From Clostridiales bacterium (lineage in GTDB: Bacteria > Bacillota > Clostridia > Christensenellales > CAG-138), in assembly GCA_015056105.1 (NCBI GenBank), contig SVGX01000003.1, positions 128 through 64,127 on the forward strand: a DNA stretch of 64,000 nt, in the 5' to 3' direction. The notes under the pieces are model-generated. The model was not told the DNA's origin and ran no database searches. It saw only the letters and a list, made by a program, of their open reading frames with translations. Below, one piece after another: positions 36,922 to 60,116 of this stretch (within the stretch, counting starts at the first letter, position 1; every line of letters starts with the position of its first letter). Both the position numbers and the translations under genes were made by a program.

Positions 36922-38532
36922 ATGAAAAAAATCGTTGCCGCAAGTATCGTCCTCTGCCTTCTTCTTTGCCCGTTAACCGCTCTTGCCGCCGCCCTTACCG
37001 GCGTGAACATCAGCCAGACGGCACAGGCGGAGGATGCGCTTTATGTGTTCTTCGATGTGACCGATGAAACCGGCGCGCCCATTGCGGGCATCGGCGCGGA
37101 GGATGTGAGCATCTCCCTCGGCGGCCGGGATTTCGCGTCCAAAGTCGGCACGGTGGGCGGCAGCGGCCTTGGCGTGGGCTATGTGTTCGCGGTGGATATC
37201 TCCCGCTCGCTGAATGAAAAGCAGTTTGCCTATGTGCGCGAAGCCATCGGTGCGTGGATCGGCGCCATGGGCGAAAAGGATATGGCATCCATCCTCACCT
37301 TCGGGGATGAGATCACCATGCTCACCGATTTTACCGCCGATACCGATGCGCTTCTTTCCACCGTGGAGGGGATCTCCCCCACCGACGGCACAACGCAGCT
37401 GTATAACGGCATCATCCGCGCGCTGGATGTGGCAAAGCGCCAGAGTGCGGAGCTGCCTCTTCGCCGGGTGCTCGTCATCCTTTCCGACGGTATGGATGAC
37501 TATCCCGCCGGTGCCACCATGGCGGAGGTGACCGCCAAAGCGGAAGATGCGGGTGTTCCCATCTATGCGGTGGGCGTAAAGGGAAAAAACAACCAGAGCG
37601 AGCTCAACGAGCTTGGCAGCGTGGCAAGGCTTTCCGGCGGCGAGCTGTACCTGACGGAGCAGGACCAGCTGCGGGGTGGTTATGAGACCGTGTTTGACCG
37701 CATCCTGAACGGCTATGTGGCGGCTGTCGCCCTTGATGGCGCCGCAGCCGACGGCAGCGAGCAGGGGCTCATCCTTTCCGTGAAGCAGGGCAGCGTGTTT
37801 GTGGAGGATGGCGTGGATGTGCGTCTGAAGGCAGTGGCGGCAGCCACCGCAGCGCCGACGGAAGCGCCGGCAAATACTCCCGCGCCCACAAAGACGCCTG
37901 CGGCGATACCCACGACCGCGCCTTCGGCCCAAACGCCCAAGGCAAAGGGCGGCATGGCGCTGCCTGTTATTATTGCCGTTGCTGCGGCAGCGGCGGCAGG
38001 CATCGTGGTGCTCATCCTTTCCGCCAAAAAGCGCGGGGCGAAAAAGGCGGAGCAGGAGAAGCTGGAGGAGATCCGCCGCCGGCAGAAGCTGGATGAGCTG
38101 ATCGATGTGAAGGCGCCAAGGTCCGGCGGCAGCGCAACGGGTGTCCTTACGGACCGCACCGTGGCCCTTGATGATGAAAAGACCGTATCGCTGGGCGGCC
38201 CGCGGCAGCGGCGGCTCATGCTTTCCCTGGAGGATACGCGCAGCGGCGGCGAGCGCCGCTACACAGCGCCCATCGGCCGGGAACTGACGGTGGGCAGAAA
38301 GGCCGGCGAGGTGGATATCGAGATCCGTGACCGCTCCGTCAGCGGGCGGCACTGCGCCTTTGCGCTCAGAAATGAGCGGCTCTTCCTTTGGGATCTTAAT
38401 TCCACCAACGGCACTTATCTGATGACGCCGAAAGGAAAACAGCGCATCGGCGGCGAGGGCGCCCCGGTGAAAAACGGCGATGTGATCCTGCTTGGCGAAA
38501 CGGAGCTGGCGATTATCGTTTACGAGGATTGA
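36922..38532 (+). CDS. bitopic membrane protein: extracellular vWA domain (intact MIDAS), TM helix, cytoplasmic FHA domain
   Basis: Signal peptide; VFAVDISRS (DxSxS), GTTQLY and LSDGMDD for vWA; a P/T/A-rich linker; TM ALPVIIAVAAAAAAGIVVLIL. The FHA reads LTVGRKAGEVDIEIRDRSVSGRHCAF...DLNSTNGTYL, with the canonical GR, SxxH and NG residues. Confidence 0.8.
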   Translation: MKKIVAASIVLCLLLCPLTALAAALTGVNISQTAQAEDALYVFFDVTDETGAPIAGIGAEDVSISLGGRDFASKVGTVGGSGLGVGYVFAVDISRSLNEKQFAYVREAIGAWIGAMGEKDMASILTFGDEITMLTDFTADTDALLSTVEGISPTDGTTQLYNGIIRALDVAKRQSAELPLRRVLVILSDGMDDYPAGATMAEVTAKAEDAGVPIYAVGVKGKNNQSELNELGSVARLSGGELYLTEQDQLRGGYETVFDRILNGYVAAVALDGAAADGSEQGLILSVKQGSVFVEDGVDVRLKAVAAATAAPTEAPANTPAPTKTPAAIPTTAPSAQTPKAKGGMALPVIIAVAAAAAAGIVVLILSAKKRGAKKAEQEKLEEIRRRQKLDELIDVKAPRSGGSATGVLTDRTVALDDEKTVSLGGPRQRRLMLSLEDTRSGGERRYTAPIGRELTVGRKAGEVDIEIRDRSVSGRHCAFALRNERLFLWDLNSTNGTYLMTPKGKQRIGGEGAPVKNGDVILLGETELAIIVYED

Positions 38533-38601
38533 TGCGCCTGTGCCTGAAAGGCAATGCGCAGGAACATAACGATGCAATACCATTCTTTAGGAGGATGATC
38601 C

Positions 38602-41600
38602 ATGCGGTTTGTGATCATGGCCTATGCAAACGGCGCGTATGAGGAGTTTCGTTTGCCCGCGCTGAACGATGCGGATCATGAAATCCTGCTTTCTGCGGTG
38701 CGCTTTGGTTTGAAAAAAGACATTGCCCTGCGCTTTGAGGTGCTTTCCGGGGAGTGGAAAGTGCTTGGCGGCAAGGGCTATGCCCTGTTTGACCGGCAGG
38801 AGCAAAAGGAACAGCTGCCCCTTGCGGACGAGCTGACCTTCGGCGTCATCAGCGGTGCGGATCATGTGACGCTGATCGTGACCGGCGAGGCGGAAAGTCT
38901 GCCCTGCTTCCAGAAAATCGATATCTCCCGCCTGCGGGAGCTCACGGTGGGAAAACAGGAGGGCTGCCATATCCGCTATGATTTCCGTGGCCTTGTGAGC
39001 AAGCGCCATGCGGTGCTGGCAAGGGAGGCGGATGGTTCCATGCGCCTTACGGACCAAAGCACCAACGGCGTGTATGTGAACGGACAGCGGATACAGGGGG
39101 CAAGGCGCCTTGCTTTTGGCGATGTGATCAACATCCTCGGCCTGAAGCTCGTCTTCCTTGGCGATGCCCTCGGCGTGTATGCCCTTGGCAGGCAAGTGGA
39201 GATCGATCCGCGCATCCATATGCCCTATGTGCTGCCCCAAAGCGGCGAAAAGCAGCCCCCGGCGGAGGAGAGCCGCTTCAAGCGCGCCCCCCGCGCGGTG
39301 GAGGAGCTGCACCGGGAGCCGGTGGAGATCGAAGCGCCGCCGCCGCCCAACAAGCCGAAAAAGCAGCCGCTGCTGCTGACCATCGGCCCTGCCTTTACTA
39401 TGATGATCCCCATGCTGCTCGGTTCCGGCATGGCGATCTTCAGCGCCGGTGCCACCGGTATGGGAAGAAGTCCCTTCATGTTCACCGGCATTATCACGGC
39501 GGTATCCTCCGCTGCCATCGGCGTGATGTGGGCGCTCATCAACATGCGCCATGCGAAAAAGCAGCTTCGGGAGGATGAACTGCACCGCTTCAATGCTTAC
39601 CGGGATTATCTTGTCAGGATCGCGGATGAACTTAACGAGCAGTATCGGGATAACGCAAAGACCCTTAATGACCGCTATCCCTCCGCGGAGGCCTGTCTTC
39701 GTTACGGGGCGGATCCCACAAGGCTCTGGAACCGTAACTTTACCCATGATGACCTTCTTTTTGTGCGCCTTGGCATGGGCAGCATGCCCTTCCAGGTTCC
39801 CATCGGCATCCCTAAGGAGCGCTTTACGCTGGTGGATGATTCCCTTTCCGAAAAACCGAAGCAGATCTTTGATAGTTTCAGCACCCTGAGGGATGTGCCC
39901 GTGGGGGTGGACCTTGGGGCCGATCCCCTCTGGGGCATTTACGGCGGCGGCAGCATGGCGGAGGGCATCTCCGTGGCCCGCAGCATGGCTGTGCAGCTTG
40001 CGGCCAATACCTGCTATACGGATGTGAAGCTCGTCTTCCTTTACGAGAAGCAGTATGAGCGGGAATTTGCATTTGCAAAGTGGCTTCCCCATGTCTGGTC
40101 GGAGGATAAGAAGGTCAGGTATGTGGCTTCCGATAAAAACGAAGTCAGCGATGTGCTCTATGCCCTCGGCAGCACCCTCCGCATCCGTGCAGAGCAGGAA
40201 AACAGGCGCGGCGCCGCCCGCCCGCACTATGTGGTCTTTGTGTGCGACCCCGATCTTCTTGAAGGGGAACCGGCGGCAAAATATCTTCTTGAACCTGTGG
40301 AGGGGCTGGGCGTATCCACGGTGCTCATCGCGCCGGGCTATGAAGCGCTGCCCAACAGCTGCACCAACCTCATCGAACGGGATAAGCATTTTTGCGGTTT
40401 CTACGATGTGAGCACCGTGGAATCGAAAAAACGCGCCGTTGCCTTTGATGATGTAAGCGCCTTTGAGGCGGAGCGCTTTGCCCGCTGGCTTTCCGGCATT
40501 CGGGTAAAGGAGCTTGAGAGCGGCGGCGAGCTGGCGGATGCCGTTACCTTCTTCGATCTGTACGGCGTGCAGTCGTTGGCGGAGTTTGGCGTCATCGACC
40601 GTTGGCGCAAAAACAGAACTTATGAAAACATGCGCGCGCTGGTGGGCCAAAAGGCCGGCGGTGCCGATCTGTACCTTGATATCCACGAAAAATACCACGG
40701 ACCCCACGGCCTTGTGGCGGGCACCACGGGCAGCGGCAAAAGCGAAACGCTGCAGACCTATATGCTCTCCCTTGCCCTCAATTTCAGTCCGCTGGATGTG
40801 GGCTTCTTCGTCATCGACTACAAGGGCGGCGGCATGGCCAACCTGTTTTCCGACCTGCCTCACATGCTCGGGCAGATCTCCAACCTTTCCGGTAACCAGG
40901 TGCGCCGCGCCATGGTCAGCATCAAGAGCGAGATCAAGCGCCGCCAGCGCATTTTCGGCGAGTATGATGTGAACCATCTCGATCAGTATACGCGGCTGCT
41001 CAAAAACGGCGAAGCCGCCGTGCCGATCCCGCACATGGTCATTGTGATCGATGAGTTTGCGGAGCTCAAACGGGAAGAACCCGACTTTATGCGGGAACTG
41101 ATCAGCGTGGCGCAGGTGGGCCGAAGCCTGGGCATCCACCTGATCCTTGCCACCCAGAAGCCTGCCGGCACCGTGGATGACAACATCTGGAGCAACTCAA
41201 AATTCAAGCTCTGCCTCCGGGTACAGGATAAGCAGGACAGCATGGATATGCTCAAAAAGCCGGACGCTGCCTATATCACCCGGGCGGGCCGCTGCTACCT
41301 GCAGGTGGGCAACGATGAGATTTTCGAGCTTTTCCAGTCCGGCTGGAGCGGCGCGGCCTATGATGAGGATATGGCTGCCGCCAAGGCGGAAGTTGCCACC
41401 ATGCTTTCCAAAACGGGCCAGCCCAGCCTTGTAGGCAACCGCAGCAAGCTAAAATGGAAGGAGCAGAAGCGCCTCGGTTGGTTCAGCGAGATCTACGATT
41501 GCATCCTTGCCGCCGCCAAAGCGGAGAATAAGTCCCTTGATGCCATCCTTAAGGATGCACACGATAAGGATGCGGCGGTGGAAGCGGTGTTTGCCATGCT

Positions 41601-43566
41601 GGCCAATAAGGGGTATGAATACCCCGTCAGCCGGTATAACGCCAAGCGGCTGGAGGATTTCATGCTGCTGGCCGCCAAGGCGCAGGGCGTTGGTGATAAG
41701 GCAAAAACCCTTGATATCATCCGCAAAACCGCAGCCCTTGGCGGAATCAAACTGCCGGAGCTGAAGGAAAAGACCCAGCTTGCGGCGGTGGTGGAATACC
41801 TGAAGGAGCAGGCGGAAAAAAGCGGCATGAAGGCGGATCTGACGCTGTGGTTGCCGGTGCTGCCGGCGCGGCTGCACCTTGCGGAGCTTCAGGGCTTTGC
41901 GGGCGGTGCCTTCCGCAATGGCTGGCAGCCTGTTCTGCCCGGCCGCGAGTGGGAGCTGCGAGCCCCCGTGGGCCTTTGTGATGACCCGGTGAACCAGGCG
42001 CAGACGCCGGTGGAGGTGAACTTTGCGACCGATGGCCACATCGCCGTGTGCGGCATGGTGGTGAGCGGCAAAAGCACCTTCCTGCAGACGCTGCTCTACT
42101 CGCTGGCAAACCGCTATTCGCCGGAATATGTCAACTTCTATATCCTTGATTACAGCAGCAGGATGCTCGGCTGCTTCAAGGATCTCAAGCATTGCGGCGG
42201 CGTGGTCTTTGAAGACCGGAGCGACCGTACCGGCAAGCTCTTCGCCATGCTCAAAAAGGAGCTGGAACGCCGCAAAAAGCGCTTTGAGGGCGGCAACTAC
42301 GCCCAGTATGTGCGTGCCAACGGCCCCGTGGAGCCGGCGCTGCTGCTTGTGATCGACGGCTTTGCCAACTTTAAGGAAAAAACCGATAACCGCTATGAAG
42401 ATATGCTCATCGAGCTTTCCCGCGAGGGTGCCAATTACGGCATCTTCCTCGTGCTGTCGGCGGGCGGCTTTGGCGCGGCGGAGATCCAGAACCGCATCGG
42501 CGAAAACATCAAGACCGTGTTTGCGCTGCAGCTTGGCGACAGGCTCAAATACAGCGATACGCTGCGCCAGCGGGTGGATGTGATGCCGGAGGCGGATACC
42601 CTTGGCCGCGGCCTTGCGCTGGTGCAGGGAACGCCCCTTGAATTCCAGACCGCCCTTGCCCTTCCCGCAGAGGATGATTACGAACGGGCGGAGAAGATGG
42701 CGGCGGTGTTCGCGCGGATGAACGAAGCGTATCCGGGCAGGGGCGCAAAGCCCATCCCGGAGATCCCGGAAAAGCCCACTTTTGCTCTCCTGCGGGAAAA
42801 TGAGGGCTACAAAGTGCTGCTTGAAACGCCGGACCGCCTGCCCCTCGGCTACGTGGCGGCGGATGCGGATATTGCCGGCATCGATCTCAAACAATGCTTT
42901 ACGTACCTTGTGGCGGGGCAGGGCCGCACCGGCAAGAGCAATGCCCTTGCCTGCCTGATGCAGGCCGCCCATGACCGGGGCGGCAGCATCGCCGTGATCG
43001 ACAGCCGCAAAGGCGAGCTTGCCGCCATGGCGAAGGAGCTTGGCGCGCGCTATGTTTCCACCGAGGAAGAGCTTGCCGCCTTTGCGGGCGAGCTGTTTGA
43101 GCAGATGCGCGAGCGCAACAGCCTGAAGCGGGCGCTGCGGGCAAAGGGCGCGTCGGATGAGGAGATCTATGCGGCGATGCTCCAGTATCCCGCCTGCTAT
43201 CTCTTCATCGATGACATGGCGGAGCTGACGGAAACGCTGTATTCCGGCTCTGCGCAGATGCAGAACATCATCGGCTTTATGGAGAATTTCTTCGATAAGG
43301 GCGCGCTGCATAACATGTATGTGTTCGGCGCCGTGCCGCTTTCCGGCTACAGCATGGCCCTTGGCTACCGGGCTTTCCGCCTTGCGGCGGAACGGAAGAC
43401 CGGCCTGCTGCTTGGCGGCGATGCGGCGCGCCAGCAGCTGTTCGATCTTTCCGCGCTGCCCTATTCCGAGCAGACGAAGAAGTTCAGGCCGGGCATCGCG
43501 CTGCTGCCGCAGGACCATGAGCGGGAGCGGCCCGAAAAGATCGTGCTGCCCATTGCAAGAGGATGA
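38602..43566 (+). CDS. essC: type VII secretion FtsK/SpoIIIE-family ATPase EssC (YukB-like)
   Basis: 1654 aa. N-terminal FHA-like modules (LTVGKQEGCHIRYDFRGLVSKRHAVL...STNGVYVNG), 2 TM helices and three P-loop domains: GTTGSGKSE with VIVIDEFAEL, GMVVSGKST, and GQGRTGKSN with LFIDDMAEL. Confidence 0.9.
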   Translation: MRFVIMAYANGAYEEFRLPALNDADHEILLSAVRFGLKKDIALRFEVLSGEWKVLGGKGYALFDRQEQKEQLPLADELTFGVISGADHVTLIVTGEAESLPCFQKIDISRLRELTVGKQEGCHIRYDFRGLVSKRHAVLAREADGSMRLTDQSTNGVYVNGQRIQGARRLAFGDVINILGLKLVFLGDALGVYALGRQVEIDPRIHMPYVLPQSGEKQPPAEESRFKRAPRAVEELHREPVEIEAPPPPNKPKKQPLLLTIGPAFTMMIPMLLGSGMAIFSAGATGMGRSPFMFTGIITAVSSAAIGVMWALINMRHAKKQLREDELHRFNAYRDYLVRIADELNEQYRDNAKTLNDRYPSAEACLRYGADPTRLWNRNFTHDDLLFVRLGMGSMPFQVPIGIPKERFTLVDDSLSEKPKQIFDSFSTLRDVPVGVDLGADPLWGIYGGGSMAEGISVARSMAVQLAANTCYTDVKLVFLYEKQYEREFAFAKWLPHVWSEDKKVRYVASDKNEVSDVLYALGSTLRIRAEQENRRGAARPHYVVFVCDPDLLEGEPAAKYLLEPVEGLGVSTVLIAPGYEALPNSCTNLIERDKHFCGFYDVSTVESKKRAVAFDDVSAFEAERFARWLSGIRVKELESGGELADAVTFFDLYGVQSLAEFGVIDRWRKNRTYENMRALVGQKAGGADLYLDIHEKYHGPHGLVAGTTGSGKSETLQTYMLSLALNFSPLDVGFFVIDYKGGGMANLFSDLPHMLGQISNLSGNQVRRAMVSIKSEIKRRQRIFGEYDVNHLDQYTRLLKNGEAAVPIPHMVIVIDEFAELKREEPDFMRELISVAQVGRSLGIHLILATQKPAGTVDDNIWSNSKFKLCLRVQDKQDSMDMLKKPDAAYITRAGRCYLQVGNDEIFELFQSGWSGAAYDEDMAAAKAEVATMLSKTGQPSLVGNRSKLKWKEQKRLGWFSEIYDCILAAAKAENKSLDAILKDAHDKDAAVEAVFAMLANKGYEYPVSRYNAKRLEDFMLLAAKAQGVGDKAKTLDIIRKTAALGGIKLPELKEKTQLAAVVEYLKEQAEKSGMKADLTLWLPVLPARLHLAELQGFAGGAFRNGWQPVLPGREWELRAPVGLCDDPVNQAQTPVEVNFATDGHIAVCGMVVSGKSTFLQTLLYSLANRYSPEYVNFYILDYSSRMLGCFKDLKHCGGVVFEDRSDRTGKLFAMLKKELERRKKRFEGGNYAQYVRANGPVEPALLLVIDGFANFKEKTDNRYEDMLIELSREGANYGIFLVLSAGGFGAAEIQNRIGENIKTVFALQLGDRLKYSDTLRQRVDVMPEADTLGRGLALVQGTPLEFQTALALPAEDDYERAEKMAAVFARMNEAYPGRGAKPIPEIPEKPTFALLRENEGYKVLLETPDRLPLGYVAADADIAGIDLKQCFTYLVAGQGRTGKSNALACLMQAAHDRGGSIAVIDSRKGELAAMAKELGARYVSTEEELAAFAGELFEQMRERNSLKRALRAKGASDEEIYAAMLQYPACYLFIDDMAELTETLYSGSAQMQNIIGFMENFFDKGALHNMYVFGAVPLSGYSMALGYRAFRLAAERKTGLLLGGDAARQQLFDLSALPYSEQTKKFRPGIALLPQDHERERPEKIVLPIARG

Positions 43567-47229: not shown

Positions 47230-47239
47230 GGAGGAAAGC

Positions 47240-47671: not shown

Positions 47672-47682
47672 GAGGAAAGCGG

Positions 47683-47997: not shown

Positions 47998-48094
47998 CGA
48001 TCGCTTCGGCGCGAAGCGATGAAGAGGAAACCGGCGCTCCTTTTAGGGGGCGTAACAATACAGAGACCATCAATCCAACAGGAGGAAGAGAACC

Positions 48095-48400: not shown

Positions 48401-48439
48401 TAGGGTGCAGCCGGAGCAACGAGCGAAAGGAGACAAATC

Positions 48440-52142: not shown

Positions 52143-52958
52143 ATGAAGAAAAAAATATGCGCAGCTGTTTGCGCTTTGATCATATTATTGTTGGCGGCGG
52201 GCTGCGGCACGCTGCCGGAAACCTTTGAAAATGAGAAAGAGATCGGACAGGAGGACAATATGGAAACGGTAAAGCTGACCAACGAGGAAAAAGAACTGCT
52301 TTGCAGCATGTATTCCGGAGAGGAGCGTATCTGCCGGGGCGATCTGCTGGACCATGAGATCGCGCTGCTGGAGCAGCTTCGTTTCGGCATGTCCTACCTG
52401 TCGGAAAAATACCCGAAGCATCGCTTTGAAATGACCGCCTGCATCCCGCAGGGCAAAATGGAGACGCATACCACCGTGTCCGTCTGTGCCGAAGGGGTGG
52501 ATGGCGTTTACACGCTGCGCCTTGAGACGCTCCCGGACGGTACATACCTTGCGGAGGATGATTTTTATGCTGTCACCATCCGGGAGGAATATACCGCCAT
52601 GCTCCGGGCTGCCGCCAAAGCGGCCGTGGCCGGGACCCTTGGCGTGTGGGCGGAGTTTCCGGGCCTTTACGGCATGGAATGCGGCGCTGCAGGATATGAC
52701 CTTGCAGCCGCCGCAAAGGATGGCAGCATGGTGTTTGCGGAGTGCGCCGTGTATGTGGACGGCCGCAGCGATGCTGCGCCCGATGCCGTTTCGGCAGCGC
52801 TGAAACAGGCGCTGGCGGATAAAGGCTTCCGCGGTAACTTCTATGTCTATGTGCTGGAAGAAGTGCCCGAGGACGATATCACGGATGAAGCCCTTCGTGC
52901 CTTTGTGAAGGAAAACGTGGGCGCCGATGCTTATGTGCGCGAAAAGTTTTCGCTGTAA
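52143..52958 (+). CDS. lipoprotein of unknown function (candidate immunity protein)
   Basis: MKKKICAAVCALIILLLAAGC lipobox. Sits between the helical protein and the hydrolase gene. Confidence 0.6.
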   Translation: MKKKICAAVCALIILLLAAGCGTLPETFENEKEIGQEDNMETVKLTNEEKELLCSMYSGEERICRGDLLDHEIALLEQLRFGMSYLSEKYPKHRFEMTACIPQGKMETHTTVSVCAEGVDGVYTLRLETLPDGTYLAEDDFYAVTIREEYTAMLRAAAKAAVAGTLGVWAEFPGLYGMECGAAGYDLAAAAKDGSMVFAECAVYVDGRSDAAPDAVSAALKQALADKGFRGNFYVYVLEEVPEDDITDEALRAFVKENVGADAYVREKFSL

Positions 52959-52982
52959 GCGGCGGGAGAGGAGGGCTATACC

Positions 52983-54632
52983 ATGGCACTGAGCAAAGAA
53001 CAGCTGCTGCTGCTTAACAACCTTATGTATCTTCCGGATATAAAAGCGGAGGATGGGCACCCCGTCAGCTATCCGATCCATAAGCTGCCCGATGATTATC
53101 AGACCGTGGGGGATATCGTCAACAACCTGCAGGCGAATTATGCCCATGTCGACAACAAAGGGGAATACGGCTCCTATACCTCCGGAACGGACTGGAAAAA
53201 CCTCATCAATGCCATCTCGCAGGATGAAACGCTGATGAACATGCAGATCGTTGCCACCCATGTGGATAATGGCCCCACCGGAGGCGGCGGTAAAAGCGCC
53301 CTGTTTGTGGACCCTGCAAACGGCGAAGCGGTAGTCACCTTCCGTGGCACAGCCAGCGGCGAGTGGAAGGATAACTTCGTGGGCGGCACCGCCACCAACG
53401 CGGCGGATGGTGTATCCACCCCCCACCAGCAGAACGCCCTTGATTGGTATGAGAGCCTCGATCTGTCCGGCTATGAGACCGTTACCGTCACCGGCCATTC
53501 CAAGGGCGGCAACAAGGCGAAGTATATCACCCTGATGGATGATTCGGTGGACCGCTGCGTTTCCTTTGACGGGCAGGGCTTTTCCGATGAATTTATCGAG
53601 AAATACGGCGATGCCATCACCATGCGCCAGCATAAGATCGAAAACCACAACGTGGATGGCGACTATGTCAACATGCTCCTCAACGATGTGGGCGAGACCT
53701 ATTATTACGATGCCTTCCGCGGCACGGACAGCTTCCTTGAAAACCACTGCCCCAATACGTTTTTCAAGTTTGACGCAAACGGCAACCCCGTCATGGTGCC
53801 GGGTGAGCGCTCGCCGGTGATCGCGGCGGTGGATGAGTTCCTCAACAGCCTGCTGCGCTCCGCTTCCCCTGCTCTCAAGAAACAGCTTCTTACCTTTGCG
53901 GGCGAGCTTGCGGACTGCGCCCTTGCGGGTGATTTTTCCGTTGATGACCTGATGGTCATCCTGCGGGATGAGGATTCCGTGGAAGCTGCCGGTTATCTTA
54001 TTGCCTATTTGCTGGAATACCCCACGGCCAATGCGGCCCATGACATCAAACAGTTCCTTTCCGATGTGGGGCTTGGCGATCTCAACTGGATCATCAGCGG
54101 CGTGGAGAAGCTGCTTGATTCGGATATTGCCGCCTGGATCGTGGAGCAGATCGCCGATGGCGGGGCCTGGGCGGTGGATGCCATTCCCGACTGGCTGTAT
54201 AAAAAGATAACGGGCTTTTTCGGCATCGATCTCAAAAAAGAGGATATCGTGTTCGTGCTGCAGCTGGTGGGTGCCACCTTTGATGCCAAGCAGCAGATCG
54301 AAGTGGTACCGGATTCCGGCAAGGATATCAGCCTGCCTTCCCTCGGGGGCACGCCTGCCTGCTTCAGCGTATATGCGGATACTCTGCGTGCGGCGGCGGA
54401 AAAGCTGGGGGAGGCCTCCTTTGACCTTGCCCGCAGTGCGGATGCCGTAACGGTGCAGCGGAAAAAGACGAGCCTTTTCCTCGGCGTGATCCGCATCCGC
54501 CTCGGCAGCATTGCAAGAAAGCTCGACAAGCAGAGCACCAAAGCCCGCAAAATGCAGAATACCCTCGCAAGCGTGGCAGAGCTGTATGAGAAGGCGGAAA
54601 AAGCCGCCGCAGCCCACGCAAACACAAAATAA
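52983..54632 (+). CDS. DUF2974/Mbeg1-like alpha/beta hydrolase (lipase/esterase fold) with C-terminal WXG/LXG-like helical domain
   Basis: VVTFRGTASGEWKDNF...TVTGHSKGGNKAKY (GxSxG). No signal peptide. The C-terminal 110 aa are helical and end ...ASVAELYEKAEKAAAAHANTK. Confidence 0.7.
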   Translation: MALSKEQLLLLNNLMYLPDIKAEDGHPVSYPIHKLPDDYQTVGDIVNNLQANYAHVDNKGEYGSYTSGTDWKNLINAISQDETLMNMQIVATHVDNGPTGGGGKSALFVDPANGEAVVTFRGTASGEWKDNFVGGTATNAADGVSTPHQQNALDWYESLDLSGYETVTVTGHSKGGNKAKYITLMDDSVDRCVSFDGQGFSDEFIEKYGDAITMRQHKIENHNVDGDYVNMLLNDVGETYYYDAFRGTDSFLENHCPNTFFKFDANGNPVMVPGERSPVIAAVDEFLNSLLRSASPALKKQLLTFAGELADCALAGDFSVDDLMVILRDEDSVEAAGYLIAYLLEYPTANAAHDIKQFLSDVGLGDLNWIISGVEKLLDSDIAAWIVEQIADGGAWAVDAIPDWLYKKITGFFGIDLKKEDIVFVLQLVGATFDAKQQIEVVPDSGKDISLPSLGGTPACFSVYADTLRAAAEKLGEASFDLARSADAVTVQRKKTSLFLGVIRIRLGSIARKLDKQSTKARKMQNTLASVAELYEKAEKAAAAHANTK

Positions 54633-56994: not shown

Positions 56995-58956
56995 ATGAAA
57001 CCCTACGAACAAACTTATCAGATCCTCTCCACGCTGGGACGCGGCGGCATGGGCGCGGTGTATCTTGTAAAGCACCTGCGCCTCGGCACGCTGTGGGCCC
57101 TTAAGGAGATCGATAAAACAGCCGGCGGGCAGGTGGACCTGCTTGCGGAAGCCAACATGCTCAAGCGGCTTTCCCATCCGGCGCTGCCCCGCATCATCGA
57201 TATTTATGAGGATGCGGCGAGCATCTATATCGTGGAGGATTATATCGAGGGCGTCAGCCTGGATAAACGCCTTCGCGAAGCGGGCAGGTTCCCCGAAAGC
57301 ACCGTGCGCCTTTGGGCGGAGGAGCTTTGCGGCGTGCTTCGCTATCTGCACGAGCAGCAGCCCAACCCCATCATTTACCGGGATATGAAGCCCGGCAACG
57401 TGATGATCACGCCGGATAACAAGGTGAAGCTCATCGATTTCGGTATCGCCCGGGAATTCAAACAGGAAAGCAGCGGCGATACCACCAGCCTCGGCACCCT
57501 TGGCTATGCGGCGCCTGAGCAGTACGGCACCGCCCAGTCCGATGCAAGAACGGATATCTACAGCCTTGGCGTAACGCTTTACCATGCCGTGACCGGCAAA
57601 AGCCCCAAGGATCCACCCTATGAGCTTCTGCCCATCCGCCGCTGGGATGCTTCCTTCTCGGAAGGGCTTGAATACATCATCGCCAAATGCACCCGCACCA
57701 ACCCCAATGAGCGCTACCAAAGCATCGCGCAGCTGCAGGCGGATCTGAAGAATATCGACCGTTTTTCTGCTTCAAGCCGCAGACGAAAGGCGGTGGATGC
57801 GCTCAAACTCACCGCCTGCGCGCTCATGATCCTCGGCGGCGCTGCTTTTATGCTGGCGGGCTATGCCCAAAAAGGCGTTGAAGCGCAGGAAGCATACCGT
57901 GCCCGCTATGAAGAAGGTATTGCGCTGGTGGAAGCGGGGGATATGGATGCGGCCCGCCTTGCGCTGACGGATGCGGATGCTTCCCTGCCCGGCAGCACGG
58001 ACGGCCGCTGCGCTTATCTTGCGGCGCTCATCAATGCGGATGAAACAGCCGCTGCGGCTTCCTTCGGCGCGGAGGCTCTCTCTAAAGATGCCGCTCTTGA
58101 ACTGGATGCGCGCTTCAACTACTATTACGGCGTGGCGCTCGAAGCGGAGGGCAACATACACGGCGCTGTTGCGTGCTTTGAAAACGCAAACATGATGGAG
58201 CCCGGGCAGCTTCTCTATATGCGCTCCCTTGCCCGCGCCTACGCGGCGGCGGGAGAACTGGACCTTGCCAATGCGCTGTTCTCGGAGATCGCCATCATGG
58301 CGGATAACGGCACCACTGCCTTTGTTTATGCCGGCATTCTTGAGGCACAGGGCGAAGCGGAACAGGCGGAAACGGAATATCGCCGCGCCATTGAGAACGG
58401 CACGGATGAGGATATCCGCATCGCCGCGTTTAGGGCGCTTGCCACCATGCTGAGAAGCGGCCGCGAAGGGGATCCTGCCCTTGTGGAAAAGGAGATCGAA
58501 ACGCTGCTTTCCATGCAGCGCACCTTCCCCGATAAGGAGGAGGCCTTCATCCTTGAACGGCTGGGCGAAGCCTATTTCGCAAGAGGCGTTCTGAGCGGCG
58601 CGGAAGCGGATCTTGAAGCGGCGGCGGACAGCTTCCGCGCGCTGATCGACCTTGGCTACGGCCGCGCCAGCACCTATCTCAACATCGCCGTGATCGAACA
58701 GCGGCGCATGGATTACGCTGCGGCGGAGGAAACGCTGCTGACGCTTCTTGACCGCTATCCCAACAACGGGGATGGCTGCATCCAGATGGCGTTTCTCATC
58801 GCGGAGCGGGAGGGGCAGAAGCCCCAGAGCGAGCGCGATTATGCTCCCGTGGTGGAATATTACGAGCGGGCAAAGCTTTGCGGCGCAGCGGGTGCGAACC
58901 TGCAGCGGCTTGAAGGCGTGATAGAAGACCTGAAGTCCGGCGGCTGGATAGCGTAA
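56995..58956 (+). CDS. Hanks-type Ser/Thr protein kinase, TM helix, extracellular TPR repeats
   Basis: GRGGMGAVY, ALKEI, YRDMKPGNVMI, DFGIARE and AAPEQ; TM LTACALMILGGAAFMLAGYA; then TPR-like helical repeats. Confidence 0.85.
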   Translation: MKPYEQTYQILSTLGRGGMGAVYLVKHLRLGTLWALKEIDKTAGGQVDLLAEANMLKRLSHPALPRIIDIYEDAASIYIVEDYIEGVSLDKRLREAGRFPESTVRLWAEELCGVLRYLHEQQPNPIIYRDMKPGNVMITPDNKVKLIDFGIAREFKQESSGDTTSLGTLGYAAPEQYGTAQSDARTDIYSLGVTLYHAVTGKSPKDPPYELLPIRRWDASFSEGLEYIIAKCTRTNPNERYQSIAQLQADLKNIDRFSASSRRRKAVDALKLTACALMILGGAAFMLAGYAQKGVEAQEAYRARYEEGIALVEAGDMDAARLALTDADASLPGSTDGRCAYLAALINADETAAAASFGAEALSKDAALELDARFNYYYGVALEAEGNIHGAVACFENANMMEPGQLLYMRSLARAYAAAGELDLANALFSEIAIMADNGTTAFVYAGILEAQGEAEQAETEYRRAIENGTDEDIRIAAFRALATMLRSGREGDPALVEKEIETLLSMQRTFPDKEEAFILERLGEAYFARGVLSGAEADLEAAADSFRALIDLGYGRASTYLNIAVIEQRRMDYAAAEETLLTLLDRYPNNGDGCIQMAFLIAEREGQKPQSERDYAPVVEYYERAKLCGAAGANLQRLEGVIEDLKSGGWIA

Positions 58957-58989: not shown

Positions 58990-59310
58990 ATGAGCGGAAA
59001 TACTCTTATGCTGATCGGGATCGCTATGGCGGCCCTTGGCGTGCTTCTGCTGTGTTTGCAGCTTGCTGCCATGAAAAACCGGGGAAAACGGGCAAAAAAA
59101 GCATCATCGGCGGCGGATCTGCCCGCGGCTCCCGTTGTGTCAGCCCCGCGCCGGGCCGAAAAACCGGCTGCTGCAGCTGTGGCGGATGAAGCCACCGTGA
59201 AGCTTTCCTATGCAGCGGATGAAGAGAAGAACGTGAAACTTTCTTCCGCGGCGGAAAATACCGCTGCAAGCGGGAATGAAGCGGATCAGACTGTCCGTCT
59301 GGAGGGATAA
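58990..59310 (+). CDS. small single-pass membrane protein with three [TN]V[KR]L repeats in a cytoplasmic tail
   Basis: 106 aa with good RBS. TM LMLIGIAMAALGVLLLCLQLAA, then KNRGKRAKK, then a low-complexity tail with EATVKLS, KNVKLSS and QTVRLEG. Confidence 0.55.
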   Translation: MSGNTLMLIGIAMAALGVLLLCLQLAAMKNRGKRAKKASSAADLPAAPVVSAPRRAEKPAAAAVADEATVKLSYAADEEKNVKLSSAAENTAASGNEADQTVRLEG

Positions 59311-59315
59311 GGCCG

Positions 59316-60116
59316 ATGAAGCTGAAGGTCAGCGCTGCGGTGTGCAGCCATAAAGGCAAAATACGGGGCAACAACGAGGATGCCTTCCTGCTCAACGGCG
59401 TTTATCTTCCTCTGGAGAAGATGGACGAAGGCGGGCTGTTTACGGCACAAACAGAGACTTCCTTCCAGCTTTATGCCGTTTGTGACGGCATGGGCGGCGA
59501 GGAGGCGGGGGAGCTTGCTTCCTTTGCAGCGGTGGAGACCTTTGCGAAGCTTCTAAAAGATGCTTCGCGAAAAACGGATGTCCGGCCTGCTATTGACAGC
59601 GCTGTGCAGCAGGCCAACGGGGCTGTGCTTGCCCTTGATAAAAATGCGGGCTGCACCATGACGCTCCTTTGCCTGCAGGGCGGAAAGGCGACCGTAACGT
59701 GGCTGGGCGACAGCCGTATTTACCTTCTGCGCTGCGGCGAACTGCTGCGTCTGAGCGAAGATCATACCCAGGCCCAGCGGCTGCTGAACATGGGCGTGTT
59801 CGATGCGCTGACTGCAAAAACGCATCCTTCAAGCCATGTGCTGACCCGCTATATCGGCATGGAAACGGAGGGCTTCGCGCTGCAAAGCGCCTACGGGGAA
59901 ACGCTGACCCTCAAGGCGGGGGATGTGTTCCTCCTTTGCAGCGATGGCCTTACCGACATGGTGGAAGAGACGGAGTTTGCCGCTCTTCTTAATAAAGATG
60001 CTAAGAGCGCTGCGGAAGAGCTTGTGAGCGCGGCGCTTGCAAACGGCGGCCGCGACAATGTGACCGCCATGGCAGTCAGGGTAGAGCAAGTGAAGAAAAA
60101 CATCTTTGGCCGGTAA
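59316..60116 (+). CDS. PP2C-family Ser/Thr phosphatase
   Basis: RGNNEDAF, AVCDGMGG, LLCSDGLTD and NGGRDNVTAM metal-binding motifs. Confidence 0.9.
   Translation: MKLKVSAAVCSHKGKIRGNNEDAFLLNGVYLPLEKMDEGGLFTAQTETSFQLYAVCDGMGGEEAGELASFAAVETFAKLLKDASRKTDVRPAIDSAVQQANGAVLALDKNAGCTMTLLCLQGGKATVTWLGDSRIYLLRCGELLRLSEDHTQAQRLLNMGVFDALTAKTHPSSHVLTRYIGMETEGFALQSAYGETLTLKAGDVFLLCSDGLTDMVEETEFAALLNKDAKSAAEELVSAALANGGRDNVTAMAVRVEQVKKNIFGR

What the first reader, a model, noticed from the sequence alone, without database searches (positions are those of the whole stretch)
36922..60116. T7SSb-like locus without recognisable EsaA/EssA/EssB, rebuilt around FHA, vWA, RCC1, Hanks-kinase and PP2C genes
Seen: 19 same-strand genes with short gaps. 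They include EssC (three P-loops, N-terminal FHA-like modules), an 82-aa YukD/EsaB-like protein and five WxG proteins. Established: the firmicute T7SSb core is EsxA, EsaA, EssA, EsaB, EssB and EssC. None of the other products looks like EsaA (about 1000 aa, polytopic) or EssB (pseudokinase-TM). EssA, a small single-TM protein with no diagnostic motif, cannot be excluded by eye (see the 106-aa protein at 58990..59310). Instead the block has a vWA-TM-FHA protein just upstream of essC and an RCC1/TPR lipoprotein overlapping the essC stop. It also has a second TPR lipoprotein, two TM kinases, a PP2C and a small TM protein. Inference: a distinct T7SS architecture with different membrane partners and phospho-control.
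Basis: partly seen in the sequence, partly recalled or inferred. Interest (0 to 1): 0.9.

Follow-up and report, generated by a model that had tools for sequence, protein, structure and literature searches.

The report
Clostridial type VII secretion variant, phospho-regulated
This is a real type VII protein-secretion gene cluster from an uncultured rumen/gut Clostridiales bacterium that lacks the usual Firmicute membrane partners and instead carries kinase, phosphatase, FHA, vWA and beta-propeller surface-protein genes; the general idea was published in 2024, but this lineage and gene set are not among the described subtypes.

Summary
Window 36922-60116 carries 18 (not 19) same-strand genes with gaps of -4 to 103 nt. 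They are: vWA-TM-FHA, EssC, a TPR+RCC1 lipoprotein, YukD, a WXG-like 97-aa protein, five WXG100 proteins, a TPR lipoprotein, three cargo/immunity-like genes, two intact receptor Ser/Thr kinases, a small TM protein and a PP2C.

No product matches the EssB, EssA or EsaA profiles.

The EssC belongs to a large, mostly uncultured clostridial lineage. That lineage is 100% monophyletic and only 29-39% identical to all ten published TsxC representatives. Its conserved core is EssC-LytTR-~230aa-YukD-~120aa-WXG(n).

A membrane-anchored FHA protein, PP2C and kinases recur in about half of the related loci. The vWA ectodomain and the RCC1 lipoproteins are confined to a small subclade. The window itself lacks the otherwise constant LytTR/~230-aa pair; an independent MAG confirms this.

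T7SS variants with kinases, phosphatases and FHA proteins were already described (T7SSc-j, 2024). An analogous beta-propeller/vWA/kinase/FHA pathway that gates Esx was reported in Actinomycetes (2026).

Verdict: new variant of a known kind. The likely mechanism is pThr-FHA gating of EssC by surface sensors, and this is inferred, not shown.

The parts
36922..38532 (+). vWA-TM-FHA protein (536 aa). Layout: signal peptide, extracytoplasmic vWA domain with MIDAS motif DISRS, Pro/Thr-rich linker, TM at residues 349-367, cytoplasmic linker with three TxxL motifs, then a C-terminal FHA domain.
   Evidence: Pfam VWA 2.2e-18 and FHA 3.5e-14. TM segments. MIDAS and FHA pThr-binding residues are invariant in 15 homologues. 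TxxL motifs are conserved in the subfamily. Homologues at >=47% identity lie in T7SS loci.
38602..43566 (+). EssC-type T7SS ATPase (1654 aa). It has an N-terminal FHA region, two TM helices and three Walker A P-loops.
   Evidence: TIGR03928 1030 bits, FtsK_SpoIIIE 9e-53, FHA 1.3e-12. Walker A at residues 707, 1151 and 1439. FHA motif is GK/SxxH/NG, so the Arg is not conserved in the clade. Separate lineage.
43563..46196 (+). Lipoprotein (877 aa) with a conserved N-terminal TPR module and two tandem RCC1-type beta-propellers. The propellers are hypervariable between relatives.
   Evidence: Pfam WD40_RLD 2.7e-71 and TPR_19. LAGC lipobox. AF2 pLDDT 74 with Foldseek matches to UVR8/RCC1 at E~1e-17. 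Mean pairwise identity is 76% in the TPR module and 41% in the propellers. Only 32% identical to the L002 orthologue where EssC is 79%.
46218..46466 (+). YukD/EsaB-like ubiquitin-fold protein (82 aa).
   Evidence: Pfam YukD 1.2e-12. Syntenic in all related loci.
46570..46863 (+). 97-aa helical WXG100-related protein without a WxG motif. It belongs to the conserved ~120-aa family that follows yukD, and is shorter at the C-terminus than its relatives.
   Evidence: tblastn to L002_122 at 35% identity, E 1.5e-13. Custom p120 HMM 5.9e-33. C-terminal YHAAE. No Pfam hit.
46924..48754 (+). Five WXG100 genes: 46924-47229, 47240-47671, 47683-47997, 48095-48400 and 48440-48754.
   Evidence: Pfam WXG100 from 3e-06 to 9e-16. 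TIGR03930. WxG in all five and YxxxD/E in four.
48842..50743 (+). Probable lipoprotein (633 aa) with an N-terminal TPR module and a C-terminal region of about 480 aa of unknown fold.
   Evidence: TPR Pfam hits. N-terminal hydrophobic segment ending in Cys. TPR lipoproteins sit in the same position in L211 and L212. The AF2 single-sequence model is unusable beyond residue 130.
50776..52119 (+). 447-aa candidate T7SS substrate. It has an LXG-like N-terminal helical targeting domain and an unknown C-terminal domain.
   Evidence: The N-terminal ~100 aa match a profile of the 334-386-aa proteins that sit beside DUF4176 in related loci. No Pfam or PDB match. A 448-aa gene is syntenic in L211.
52143..52958 (+). 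271-aa probable lipoprotein, a candidate immunity protein.
   Evidence: Signal/lipobox-like N-terminus. No family hit. Syntenic 278-aa gene in L211. The immunity role is inference.
52983..54632 (+). 549-aa Mbeg1-like (lipase-like, GHSKG) protein with a C-terminal helical tail ending in YEKAE. This makes it a candidate 'reverse' T7SS lipase toxin.
   Evidence: Pfam Mbeg1-like 1.3e-08 and a weak T7SS_ESX_EspC match at residues 462-548. Weak match to a T6SS lipase effector. YxxxE at residue 535. Reverse lipases are known at variant T7SS loci (PMC11217815).
54655..56958 (+). Receptor Ser/Thr kinase (767 aa): cytoplasmic kinase domain, TM at residues 428-446, extracytoplasmic RCC1 repeats.
   Evidence: Pkinase 1e-36 and RCC1_2 4.9e-22. 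Gly-loop, HRD, DFG and APE motifs intact. Two tandem STK-RCC1 genes lie in the related locus L090.
56995..58956 (+). Receptor Ser/Thr kinase (653 aa): cytoplasmic kinase domain, TM at residues 267-285, extracytoplasmic TPR domain.
   Evidence: Pkinase 1.8e-48 and TPR hits. YRD, DFG and APE motifs intact. The orthologue in L006 is 60% identical where EssC is 61%.
58990..59310 (+). 106-aa protein with an N-terminal TM helix and a basic, Ala-rich cytoplasmic tail. It resembles TsxK/TsxH in topology.
   Evidence: TM at residues 5-23. No family hit. Small ORFs of 46-48 aa follow the kinase gene in L006 and L004.
59316..60116 (+). PP2C/PPM Ser/Thr phosphatase (266 aa).
   Evidence: PP2C 1.1e-17. Stp1/IreP family 1.9e-50. 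Metal-binding motifs RxxxED, DGMGG, SDG and GxxDN are present. 54% identical to the L006 PP2C.

Best explanation
The block is a genuine type VII secretion locus of a clostridial EssC lineage that is neither T7SSb nor any of the published T7SSc-j subtypes.

Secretion core: the FHA-bearing EssC ATPase, YukD, a WXG-related ~100-aa protein and five WXG100 proteins. No EsaA, EssA or EssB is present.

Ser/Thr phospho-signalling set attached to the core:
- a membrane protein with an outside vWA/MIDAS domain and an inside FHA domain
- two catalytically intact receptor kinases, with outside RCC1 and TPR domains
- a small TM protein
- a PP2C phosphatase

Surface lipoproteins are also present. They have a conserved TPR module and hypervariable RCC1 propellers.

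Proposed mechanism (inferred):
1. The surface domains detect an extracellular cue.
2. The kinases phosphorylate threonines, with the three conserved TxxL motifs in the vWA-TM-FHA linker as candidate sites.
3. FHA domains, on EssC and/or on vWA-TM-FHA, bind the phosphothreonines. This promotes assembly or activity of EssC.
4. PP2C resets the switch.

The 447-aa LXG-like protein and the 549-aa reverse lipase are cargo. The 271-aa lipoprotein is a candidate immunity factor.

Shown: gene content, domain integrity, lineage separation, recurrent co-location.
Inferred: topology, phospho-targets, direction of signalling, cargo roles.
For: Domains and motifs.

No EssB/EssA/EsaA profile hits in any of the 18 products.

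Lineage:
- More than 1000 EssC relatives at E<1e-50, about 1650-1680 aa long. Named sources include Lachnospiraceae, Blautia, Eubacterium, Ruminococcaceae and Anaeromicropila herbilytica.
- Window clade bootstrap is 100%. Identity to the ten published TsxC representatives is 21-39%, against 26-43% between the published Bacillota subtypes themselves.

Core synteny EssC-LytTR-~230aa-YukD-~120aa-WXG is seen in L002, L006, L087, L088, L089, L090, L211 and L212. It is also seen in 62 of 120 metagenome loci.

FHA membrane protein:
- It lies immediately upstream of essC in 12 of 23 evaluable loci.
- It lies among the WXG genes in others.
- vWA-TM-FHA+PP2C(+STK) recurs downstream in L108 and L191 and upstream in L006.
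- STK and/or PP2C appear in about 10 of 22 loci with at least 5 kb of readable downstream sequence.

Co-evolution with EssC: STK-TPR is 60% and PP2C 54% identical where EssC is 61%.

Sensor-like behaviour of the RCC1 lipoprotein:
- 32-34% identity where EssC is 68-79%.
- TPR module 76% versus propellers 41%.
- Tandem paralogues, up to three, in L089 and L211.
- The same fold is fused to kinases.

Conserved TxxL motifs lie between the TM and the FHA domain.

Precedents:
- T7SSc/d/e/j carry kinases, and T7SSc/e/f/j carry a PPM phosphatase (PMC11217815).
- The Esr pathway in Actinomycetes links a surface beta-propeller, vWA, a kinase/phosphatase pair and an FHA output. It gates Esx post-translationally (PMC13622651).
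- In the T6SS, PpkA (vWA ectodomain), PppA and Fha1 act together (PMC3224232).
Against: - No experiment bears on this locus; phosphorylation targets and cues are guesses.
- The EssC FHA has Lys, or other residues, in place of the canonical Arg. Its pThr binding is therefore uncertain.
- A 30%-identical vWA-TM-FHA sits with kinases and PP2C beside BREX genes with no T7SS nearby. The module is portable and not T7SS-specific.
- Only about half of related loci show PP2C or STK within the readable span. A. herbilytica shows none within 10 kb.
- The window lacks LytTR and the ~230-aa protein that are otherwise constant. Its 97-aa protein is C-terminally shorter than its relatives. This particular system might be impaired.
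- Only 64 kb of the genome is visible, so canonical partners elsewhere cannot be excluded.
- The EssC tree rests on OCR-derived reference sequences, one per subtype, and on neighbour-joining.
Confidence: 0.6

Rival explanations
1. The kinase/PP2C/FHA/vWA genes are a general or independent signalling (or conflict) cassette that merely sits next to the T7SS genes. It might control transcription or envelope homeostasis rather than the secretion machine.
For: - A related vWA-TM-FHA/STK/PP2C/trypsin-FHA block occurs beside BREX genes without any T7SS.
- The module's position relative to essC varies: upstream in L006, downstream in L108, L191 and L088.
- About half of related loci show no PP2C or STK in view.
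- The PP2C and the kinases score best on the housekeeping Stp1/Stk1 families, below their cutoffs.
- Esr1 in Actinomycetes acts transcriptionally.
Against: - EssC itself carries an FHA domain throughout the lineage.
- A TM-FHA gene abuts essC in 12 of 23 loci.
- STK-TPR and PP2C identities track EssC identity.
- The module is embedded within one same-strand, tightly spaced block.
- The window has no LytTR regulator through which transcriptional control would most simply run.
Confidence: 0.2
2. The TPR-RCC1 and TPR lipoproteins are not apparatus or sensor parts. They are polymorphic surface proteins: immunity proteins against envelope-acting T7SS toxins, adhesins, or themselves effector-related.
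For: - Tandem arrays of divergent paralogues (three in L089, three in L211) and 32-37% identity between orthologous positions are typical of immunity or effector polymorphism.
- They are confined to a small subclade of 15 homologues.
- Most loci of the lineage do without them.
- The window encodes a lipase-like toxin, whose known immunity factors in S. aureus are lipoproteins (own knowledge, not tested here).
Against: - Proteins of 820-880 aa are far larger than typical immunity proteins.
- The first copy is wedged between core genes, essC/~230aa and yukD.
- The TPR module is strongly conserved at 76%.
- The same RCC1 fold forms the ectodomain of the locus kinases.
- A beta-propeller protein (TsgL) is already counted as a T7SSg component.
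Confidence: 0.25
3. The window's locus is a decaying or non-functional copy. It has lost two otherwise constant genes (LytTR and the ~230-aa EsaE/EspG-like candidate) and has a truncated ~120-aa family member.
For: - 62 of 120 metagenome loci have LytTR directly after essC; 50 have yukD first (a different, shorter EssC type), 5 end too soon and 3 show nothing recognisable.
- None of the 120 shows the window's essC-RCC1 junction.
- tblastn finds neither gene in the 64 kb.
- The 97-aa protein lacks about 25 C-terminal residues of its relatives.
Against: - All 18 ORFs are intact, with catalytic and nucleotide-binding motifs preserved.
- The junction is a clean 4-nt overlap.
- The same arrangement persists in a second MAG at 97.9% identity.
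- The missing genes may lie elsewhere in the genome.
Confidence: 0.15
4. It is an ordinary T7SSb whose EsaA, EssA and EssB are encoded elsewhere in the genome or are too divergent to detect.
For: - EssC passes the NCBIfam 'EssC, Firmicutes' model.
- Only 64 kb of the genome is visible.
- The two kinases share EssB's topology of kinase fold, TM and ectodomain.
Against: - No EssB, EssA or EsaA profile hit at permissive thresholds in any product.
- The custom HMM scan found no further copies of the gene families seen at related T7SS loci in the rest of the window; it did not include EssB, EssA or EsaA models.
- EssC groups with T7SSb EssC in 1% of bootstraps.
- Eight related loci read in detail show the same absence.
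- The kinases retain catalytic motifs, unlike the EssB pseudokinase (PMC11217815).
Confidence: 0.05

Closest known systems
T7SSi (Vallitalea) of Garrett, Higginson & Palmer 2024 (PMC11217815)
   Same: - FHA-bearing TsxC.
- A YukD-like protein.
- Several WXG100 genes without a fixed EsxA position.
- In the window's relatives, a LytTR-domain gene right after essC (like TsiN) and a soluble ~230-aa protein that may correspond to the EspG/EsaE-like TsiG (weak DUF5081 hit, E 0.012).
- TsiC is the most similar published representative, at 37-39% identity over 987 columns.
   Different: - The clade groups with TsiC in only 7% of bootstraps.
- No TsiM (ParA-like protein with a C-terminal TM) was seen in any locus.
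- T7SSi is not reported to carry TM-FHA, vWA-TM-FHA, PP2C, kinases or RCC1 lipoproteins.
- The window itself lacks the LytTR and ~230-aa genes.
T7SSj / T7SSe / T7SSc (same paper)
   Same: - Membrane Ser/Thr kinase; TsjD has a TPR C-terminus like the window's STK-TPR.
- PPM phosphatase (TsxF).
- A separate FHA protein (TsxJ).
- A small single-TM protein (TsxK/TsxH).
- A vWA protein in T7SSc (TscE).
- The authors propose phospho-control.
   Different: - TsjC is only 29-31% identical and TscC 32-34%.
- TsxJ has DUF6382, not vWA, and Pfam finds no DUF6382 here.
- TscE is cytoplasmic, whereas here the vWA domain is extracytoplasmic and fused to FHA.
- There is no Ig-like TsxI.
- TscC lacks FHA.
Esr (epibiont sensing and response) pathway of Actinomycetales (bioRxiv 2026, PMC13622651)
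   Same: - Surface beta-propeller protein, vWA protein, Ser/Thr kinase(s), a phosphatase and an FHA output protein, encoded next to esx genes.
- The FHA output is sometimes fused to EccC.
- The propeller is the most diversified element.
- Esr2 gates secretion of a subset of substrates post-translationally.
   Different: - Esr is reported as effectively confined to Actinomycetes.
- It requires MoxR and a transglutaminase, and its EsrA is an Ig-repeat filament.
- Here there is no MoxR or transglutaminase among the 18 products.
- The vWA is outside the cell and fused to FHA.
- The propellers are RCC1-type lipoproteins and kinase ectodomains.
- Homology of the parts was not tested.
T6SS threonine phosphorylation pathway (PpkA-PppA-Fha1, Pseudomonas aeruginosa)
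   Same: The domain logic matches: a Hanks kinase with an outside vWA sensor domain, a PP2C antagonist and an FHA protein. Phospho-dependent binding of the FHA protein recruits the secretion machine (PMC3224232).
   Different: - A different secretion system and phylum.
- vWA is fused to the kinase there, and to the FHA protein here.
- This is an analogy only.
Canonical T7SSb (S. aureus Ess, B. subtilis Yuk)
   Same: - EssC with an N-terminal FHA region and three P-loops.
- YukD/EsaB.
- WXG100 substrates.
- LXG-like and reverse-lipase cargo.
   Different: - No EsaA, EssA or EssB.
- yukD lies downstream of essC.
- Five WXG100 genes instead of one.
- EssC is about 170 aa longer and is phylogenetically separate.

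Membership tests
Type VII secretion system (any subtype) | Membrane FtsK/SpoIIIE-type EssC/EccC ATPase with multiple P-loop domains | tested here: met
   TIGR03928 1030 bits (cutoff 778). FtsK_SpoIIIE 9e-53. Walker A at residues 707, 1151 and 1439. Two TM helices.
Type VII secretion system (any subtype) | WXG100-family protein(s) encoded at the locus | tested here: met
   Five genes with Pfam WXG100 from 3e-06 to 9e-16, each with a WxG motif.
Type VII secretion system (any subtype) | YukD/EsaB ubiquitin-like protein (in most subtypes) | tested here: met
   Pfam YukD 1.2e-12.
T7SSb | EssB/YukC pseudokinase-TM protein | tested here: not met
   No PF10140 or TIGR03926 hit in any of the 18 products, at Pfam E<=0.1 and NCBIfam E<=1. 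The two kinase-TM proteins keep their catalytic motifs. The rest of the genome was not testable.
T7SSb | EsaA/YueB large polytopic membrane protein | tested here: not met
   No profile hit. No product has more than two TM segments apart from EssC.
T7SSb | EssA (signal peptide plus C-terminal TM) | tested here: not met
   No profile hit. The only small TM protein (106 aa) has an N-terminal TM and a cytoplasmic tail. EssA has weak sequence signatures, so this test has low power.
T7SSb | EssC groups with T7SSb EssC | tested here: not met
   32% identity. The clade groups with S. aureus EssC in 1% of 300 bootstraps. The reference sequences are OCR-derived.
T7SSi (Garrett et al. 2024) | TsiN LytR/LytTR regulator at the locus | tested here: not met
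   Absent from the 64-kb window. Present directly after essC in every related locus read in full and in 62 of 120 metagenome loci.
T7SSi (Garrett et al. 2024) | TsiG EspG-like chaperone | tested here: inconclusive
   Relatives carry a soluble ~230-aa protein with only a weak DUF5081 hit (E 0.012). It is absent from the window.
T7SSi (Garrett et al. 2024) | TsiM (ParA/MinD-like protein with a C-terminal TM) | tested here: not met
   No such product in the window or in the Pfam-annotated related loci.
T7SSi (Garrett et al. 2024) | TsxC clusters with TsiC | tested here: not met
   37-39% identity, the best of the ten representatives. Sister grouping occurs in only 7% of bootstraps.
T7SSj / T7SSe | TsxD membrane Ser/Thr kinase and TsxF PPM phosphatase | tested here: met
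   Two TM kinases, one with a TPR ectodomain as in TsjD, and one PP2C. This is a domain-level match only; orthology was not tested.
T7SSj / T7SSe | TsxJ: DUF6382 N-terminus plus C-terminal FHA | tested here: not met
   The FHA protein here has a vWA N-terminus and a TM. There is no DUF6382 hit at E<=0.1.
T7SSj / T7SSe | TsxI: large Ig-like secreted protein with a C-terminal TM | tested here: not met
   None of the 18 products fits. The large secreted proteins are TPR/RCC1 lipoproteins.
T7SSj / T7SSe | TsxC clusters with TsjC or TseC | tested here: not met
   29-31% identity to TsjC and 34-36% to TseC. Grouping with TseC+TsdC occurs in 19% of bootstraps.
Esr pathway (PMC13622651) | MoxR AAA+ ATPase and transglutaminase EsrD alongside vWA, kinase, phosphatase and FHA | tested here: not met
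   No AAA+ MoxR or transglutaminase domain among the 18 products. vWA, STK, PP2C, FHA and a beta-propeller are present.
Esr pathway (PMC13622651) | Threat-dependent Thr phosphorylation of the FHA output protein that controls Esx | not testable with these tools
   Needs phosphoproteomics and genetics. Conserved TxxL motifs in the vWA-TM-FHA linker are only suggestive.

The most novel reading that the evidence does not exclude
This lineage carries a Bacillota counterpart of the actinobacterial Esr threat-sensing pathway, assembled from different parts. Hypervariable RCC1 beta-propeller lipoproteins and RCC1/TPR receptor kinases would recognise a competitor, epibiont or phage at the cell surface. 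The kinases would phosphorylate TxxL threonines in the vWA-TM-FHA (or TM-FHA) protein. The FHA domain of EssC would read this mark to switch on a T7SS whose only integral-membrane machine parts are EssC and the FHA protein. If so, it would be a minimal, sensor-gated T7SS, widespread in gut and rumen Clostridia.
Probability: 0.3. Interest if true: 0.8.

Novelty: new variant of a known kind. Interest (0 to 1): 0.55.

Why it matters
T7SSs of Firmicutes are studied almost entirely as T7SSb. Here the EssC lineage has over 1000 relatives at 90% clustering, many from human-gut and rumen metagenomes. It appears to run without EsaA, EssA and EssB.

That raises the question of what forms the channel and how firing is controlled in abundant commensal Clostridia.

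The recurrent pairing of EssC with a membrane FHA protein, PP2C and receptor kinases gives a concrete, testable model for post-translational gating of T7SS in Bacillota. In one subclade these are joined by an outside vWA domain and fast-evolving RCC1 propellers. The model parallels the Esr-Esx link just reported in Actinomycetes and the PpkA-Fha1 switch of T6SS.

A cultured relative, Anaeromicropila herbilytica, carries the core plus TM-FHA and vWA-TM-FHA genes. It could serve for experiments.

Tried and rejected
It gave no orthologues.

2. The first metagenome scan, with the EssC D3 alignment, picked short degenerate patterns and returned no relatives. I replaced it with a hand-designed 45-nt degenerate DNA motif. 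All 120 of its hits were EssC.

3. The single-sequence AF2 model of the 633-aa TPR lipoprotein had pLDDT below 50 from residue 131 onward. It gave no fold assignment, so I ran no fold search.

4. PDB sequence searches of the 633-, 549- and 447-aa proteins found only TPR repeats, an insignificant T6SS lipase match (E 0.15) and noise.

5. PADLOC matched only generic kinase models (mad6, PD-T4-6) and gave one weak PP2C hit. This is not evidence for a defence system.

6. The promoter/terminator scan gave no clear operon boundaries. The one exception is a promoter-like site between yukD and the 97-aa gene.

7. I considered that the STKs might be divergent EssB. Topology matches, but there is no profile hit and the catalytic motifs are intact. 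I kept this as a functional analogy only.

8. I considered assigning the locus to T7SSi on the strength of the LytTR gene in relatives. I rejected it as a membership claim: the EssC grouping is weak (7%), TsiM is absent, and the window lacks LytTR.

9. A. herbilytica EssC accession WP_271715220 does not appear in the stored supplements of Garrett et al.. Some of those files were truncated when stored, so this is weak evidence.

Full report
**1. What is in the window**

Window 36922-60116 holds 18 genes on the + strand. Gaps run from -4 to 103 nt.

In order, the products are:
- EssC, 1654 aa. It scores 1030 bits on TIGR03928, has an FHA at residues 115-178, two TM helices and Walker A motifs at residues 707, 1151 and 1439.
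- An 877-aa lipoprotein whose start overlaps the essC stop. It has an N-terminal TPR module and two RCC1-type propellers. Support comes from Pfam at 2.7e-71, an AF2 model with pLDDT 74 and Foldseek matches to UVR8/RCC1 at about 1e-17.
- YukD.
- A 97-aa helical protein without a Pfam hit.
- Five WXG100 proteins, each with a WxG motif.
- A 633-aa TPR lipoprotein.
- A 447-aa protein with an LXG-like N-terminus.
- A 271-aa lipoprotein.
- A 549-aa Mbeg1/lipase-like protein with a C-terminal helical YEKAE tail.
- Two single-pass receptor kinases with intact Gly-loop, H/YRD, DFG and APE motifs. One has an RCC1 ectodomain and the other a TPR ectodomain.
- A 106-aa protein with an N-terminal TM helix.
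- A PP2C with all metal-binding motifs.

Upstream lie an unrelated thioester-domain surface protein and a sortase. Downstream lies a dockerin-like secreted protein.

**2. Test for EsaA, EssA and EssB**

None of the 18 products hits an EssB/YukC, EssA or EsaA/YueB model. Thresholds were Pfam E<=0.1 and NCBIfam E<=1. Apart from EssC, no product has more than two TM segments.

The 106-aa protein has an N-terminal TM followed by a basic, low-complexity tail. EssA has the opposite layout, a signal peptide plus a C-terminal TM. The 106-aa protein instead resembles the TsxK/TsxH proteins of Garrett et al..

The custom profiles found no further T7SS or signalling genes elsewhere in the 64 kb. The rest of the genome cannot be seen.

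**3. Source organism**

The window is part of a 74.5-kb JGI metagenome contig. Its EssC is identical to NCBI MBE5784367.1 from a 'Clostridiales bacterium' MAG.

A second MAG contig, JAFQFU010000089.1, aligns without gaps at 97.9% identity over 4093 nt across essC-3'/RCC1 lipoprotein/yukD. The unusual junction is therefore real.

**4. The EssC lineage**

EssC has more than 1000 relatives at E<1e-50. Nearly all are 1650-1680 aa long and 46-49% identical to it. A closer set of about ten is 56-79% identical.

Named sources are Lachnospiraceae, Blautia, Eubacterium, Ruminococcaceae/Oscillospiraceae, Anaerosporobacter and the cultured Anaeromicropila herbilytica.

[quoted passage not shown] 2024. 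Over 987 aligned columns:
- The window clade is 54-87% identical within itself.
- It is 29-39% identical to the nine FHA-type and other Bacillota/Actinomycetota representatives (best: TsiC at 37-39%) and 19-21% to EccC.
- The published subtypes differ from each other by similar amounts, for example TseC-TsiC 43%, TsfC-TsiC 42% and TsdC-TseC 37%.

In 300 neighbour-joining bootstraps:
- The clade is monophyletic in 100% of replicates.
- It groups with TsiC alone in 7%.
- It groups with T7SSb EssC in 1%.
- It lies in a loose {TsiC, TseC, TsdC} group in 52%.

Caveats: the reference sequences carry OCR noise, there is one per subtype, and the method is distance-based.

**5. Conserved neighbourhood**

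I read eight related loci gene by gene with precomputed Pfam annotation: L002/L212, L089, L006, L090, L087 (A. herbilytica), L088 and L211.

All share essC, then a LytTR-domain protein (~237 aa), a soluble ~230-aa protein, yukD, a ~120-aa helical protein and 2-5 WXG100 genes. An LXG-like 330-390-aa protein plus DUF4176 often follows.

The window's 97-aa protein belongs to the ~120-aa family (35% identity, E 1.5e-13). That family is WXG-related.

A hand-designed degenerate DNA motif from the EssC C-terminus retrieved 120 metagenome loci, all of them EssC. Among these:
- LytTR is the first gene after essC in 62.
- yukD is first in 50; these carry a shorter EssC of about 1538 aa and represent a different architecture that I did not pursue.
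- 5 end too soon and 3 show nothing recognisable.

None reproduces the window's essC-RCC1 junction. tblastn finds neither LytTR nor the ~230-aa gene anywhere in the window. The window's species has therefore lost, or moved, two otherwise constant genes.

The ~230-aa protein gives only a weak DUF5081 hit (E 0.012). I suspect it is an EsaE/EspG-like chaperone, but I could not test this.

**6. How constant are the 'new partners'?**

*FHA membrane protein.* Among LytTR-type loci with readable upstream sequence, 12 of 23 have an FHA membrane protein ending within 135 nt of essC. Eleven are short TM-FHA proteins of about 180-230 aa. Only one (L196) has the vWA ectodomain. In others the TM-FHA gene sits among the WXG genes. 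A. herbilytica has both a TM-FHA gene upstream and a 536-aa vWA-TM-FHA gene at the end of the cluster.

*vWA-TM-FHA.* The family is rare, with 21 hits. Members at >=47% identity are always in T7SS loci. A 30%-identical member sits with two kinases, two PP2C and three more FHA proteins next to BREX genes, with no T7SS. The vWA-FHA/STK/PP2C set is thus a portable cassette.

*Position of the cassette.* It recurs with this T7SS in different places: upstream in L006 (STK-TPR, PP2C, vWA-FHA) and downstream in L108 (vWA-FHA, PP2C, STK), L191 and L088. About 10 of 22 loci with at least 5 kb readable downstream show PP2C and/or STK.

*Co-evolution.* The identities of STK-TPR (60%) and PP2C (54%) to their L006 counterparts track that of EssC (61%).

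**7. The RCC1 lipoproteins**

The TPR-RCC1 lipoprotein family has only 15 full-length members. Every context examined is a T7SS locus of this subclade. Copies are often tandem: three in L089, three in L211.

Between the window and L002, EssC is 79% identical, vWA-FHA 70% and YukD 66%, but the RCC1 lipoprotein only 32%. Within the family the TPR module averages 76% pairwise identity and the propeller region 41%.

The same RCC1 fold forms the ectodomain of kinases in the window and in L090. This pattern of a conserved anchoring module and a diversifying propeller is what one expects of a surface receptor in an arms race. It is also compatible with polymorphic immunity or adhesin proteins (a rival explanation).

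**8. Phospho-switch clues**

- Both kinases and the PP2C look catalytically competent.
- The FHA of vWA-TM-FHA keeps all canonical pThr-binding residues.
- The EssC FHA keeps SxxH and NG but has Lys or other residues in place of the Arg across the clade.
- In the window's vWA-TM-FHA subfamily, the cytoplasmic linker between the TM and the FHA carries two to three positionally conserved TxxL motifs. This is the classic FHA ligand form when phosphorylated. More distant homologues lack them.

These are suggestive, not proof.

**9. Comparison with published work**

Garrett, Higginson & Palmer (2024, PMC11217815) defined T7SSc-j from RefSeq. They noted that kinases, PPM phosphatases and FHA proteins are frequent and may regulate secretion.
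- By gene content, the window resembles T7SSj/e in its signalling genes: a TPR-tailed kinase, PPM, a small TM protein and a separate FHA protein.
- Its relatives resemble T7SSi in having a LytTR gene and no fixed EsxA.
- No described subtype has a vWA-TM-FHA or TM-FHA protein of this kind, TPR-RCC1 lipoproteins, or this EssC lineage.
- Full-text searches found no later paper adding subtypes.

A September 2026 preprint (PMC13622651) shows that in Actinomycetales an 'Esr' pathway senses Saccharibacteria. Its parts are a surface beta-propeller protein, MoxR, vWA, a transglutaminase, kinase(s), a phosphatase and an FHA output. It is encoded next to esx genes in 40% of cases. In its Esr2 form it gates secretion of some substrates post-translationally. 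The FHA output is sometimes fused to EccC, and the pathway is described as confined to Actinomycetes.

The window's domain set is strikingly parallel. However, it lacks MoxR and the transglutaminase and is wired differently, so I treat it as an analogue and not a member.

The T6SS PpkA (vWA ectodomain)-PppA-Fha1 switch is a further analogue.

**10. Verdict**

This is a distinct T7SS architecture with plausible phospho-control. However:
- It belongs to a pre-existing conceptual class.
- The vWA and RCC1 components are subclade-specific additions to a more widespread TM-FHA/PP2C/kinase theme.

I rate it a new variant of a known kind, of moderate interest. It has a testable and more novel reading: a Bacillota counterpart of Esr that gates a minimal T7SS. 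The present evidence neither establishes nor excludes that reading.

Noticed in passing
window 33336-36506: A thioester-domain (TED) surface protein (about 715 aa) is followed by a sortase, immediately upstream of the T7SS block. They are on the same strand but unrelated by family.
   Followed up: partly
window ~60212-62749, and G+C profile from 60 kb onward: A secreted protein of about 845 aa with no Pfam hit. It has a C-terminal dockerin-like segment (GDANCDGEYNLQD), which hints at a cellulosome-type organism. G+C falls from about 0.59 to 0.50 after 60 kb.
   Followed up: no
window 50776-54632; L211 18699-22511: A conserved triad: an LXG-like 447-aa protein, a 271-aa lipoprotein and a 549-aa Mbeg1/lipase-like protein with a C-terminal YxxxE helical tail. 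This looks like a 'reverse' lipase toxin with candidate immunity. The same triad is syntenic in a 79%-EssC relative.
   Followed up: partly
metagenome loci L091-L210 (e.g. L117, L165, L167, L177): 50 of 120 loci retrieved by the EssC C-terminal motif carry a shorter EssC of about 1538 aa. It is followed directly by yukD, WXG100 and an LXG-like gene, without LytTR. This is a second, different architecture.
   Followed up: no
L004 3316-13937 (and L005): An FHA / vWA-TM-FHA / STK(FGE-sulfatase) / PP2C / STK(Lcl_C) / trypsin-FHA / PP2C / FHA block lies next to BREX genes (BrxA, B, C, E, PglX-like). No T7SS genes are nearby. The signalling cassette exists independently of T7SS.
   Followed up: partly
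window 37990-38240 (residues ~385-415 of the vWA-TM-FHA protein): Three TxxL motifs (TGVL, TVAL, TVSL) lie in the cytoplasmic linker. They are positionally conserved in all homologues at >=41% identity and absent from distant ones. They are candidate phospho-acceptor and FHA-ligand sites.
   Followed up: partly
window 43563 (essC/RCC1 junction); L213: The window lacks the LytTR and ~230-aa genes that follow essC in every related locus read in full and in 62 of 120 metagenome loci. Here the RCC1 lipoprotein start overlaps the essC stop by 4 nt. The same junction occurs in an independent MAG at 97.9% identity.
   Followed up: yes
L089 16379-23801; L211 3287-15114; L090 21647-24953: Tandem paralogue expansion: TPR-RCC1 lipoproteins (three copies each) in L089 and L211, and STK-RCC1 receptor kinases (two copies) in L090. 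L211 and L212 also carry a 47-aa RCC1 gene fragment.
   Followed up: partly
window 46522-46550: A promoter-like site (TATACA-17-TATAAT, 10 of 12 matches) lies in the 103-nt gap between yukD and the 97-aa gene. It may be an internal promoter for the WXG cluster. The scan as a whole was not enriched over shuffles.
   Followed up: no
window 49400-49450 and 50290-50340 (TPR lipoprotein residues ~195-210 and ~485-500): Two DxDxDG-type segments (DLDLDGIDE, DINGDGIEE) resemble FG-GAP/VCBS calcium-binding loops. They lie in the otherwise unassignable C-terminal region of the 633-aa lipoprotein.
   Followed up: no
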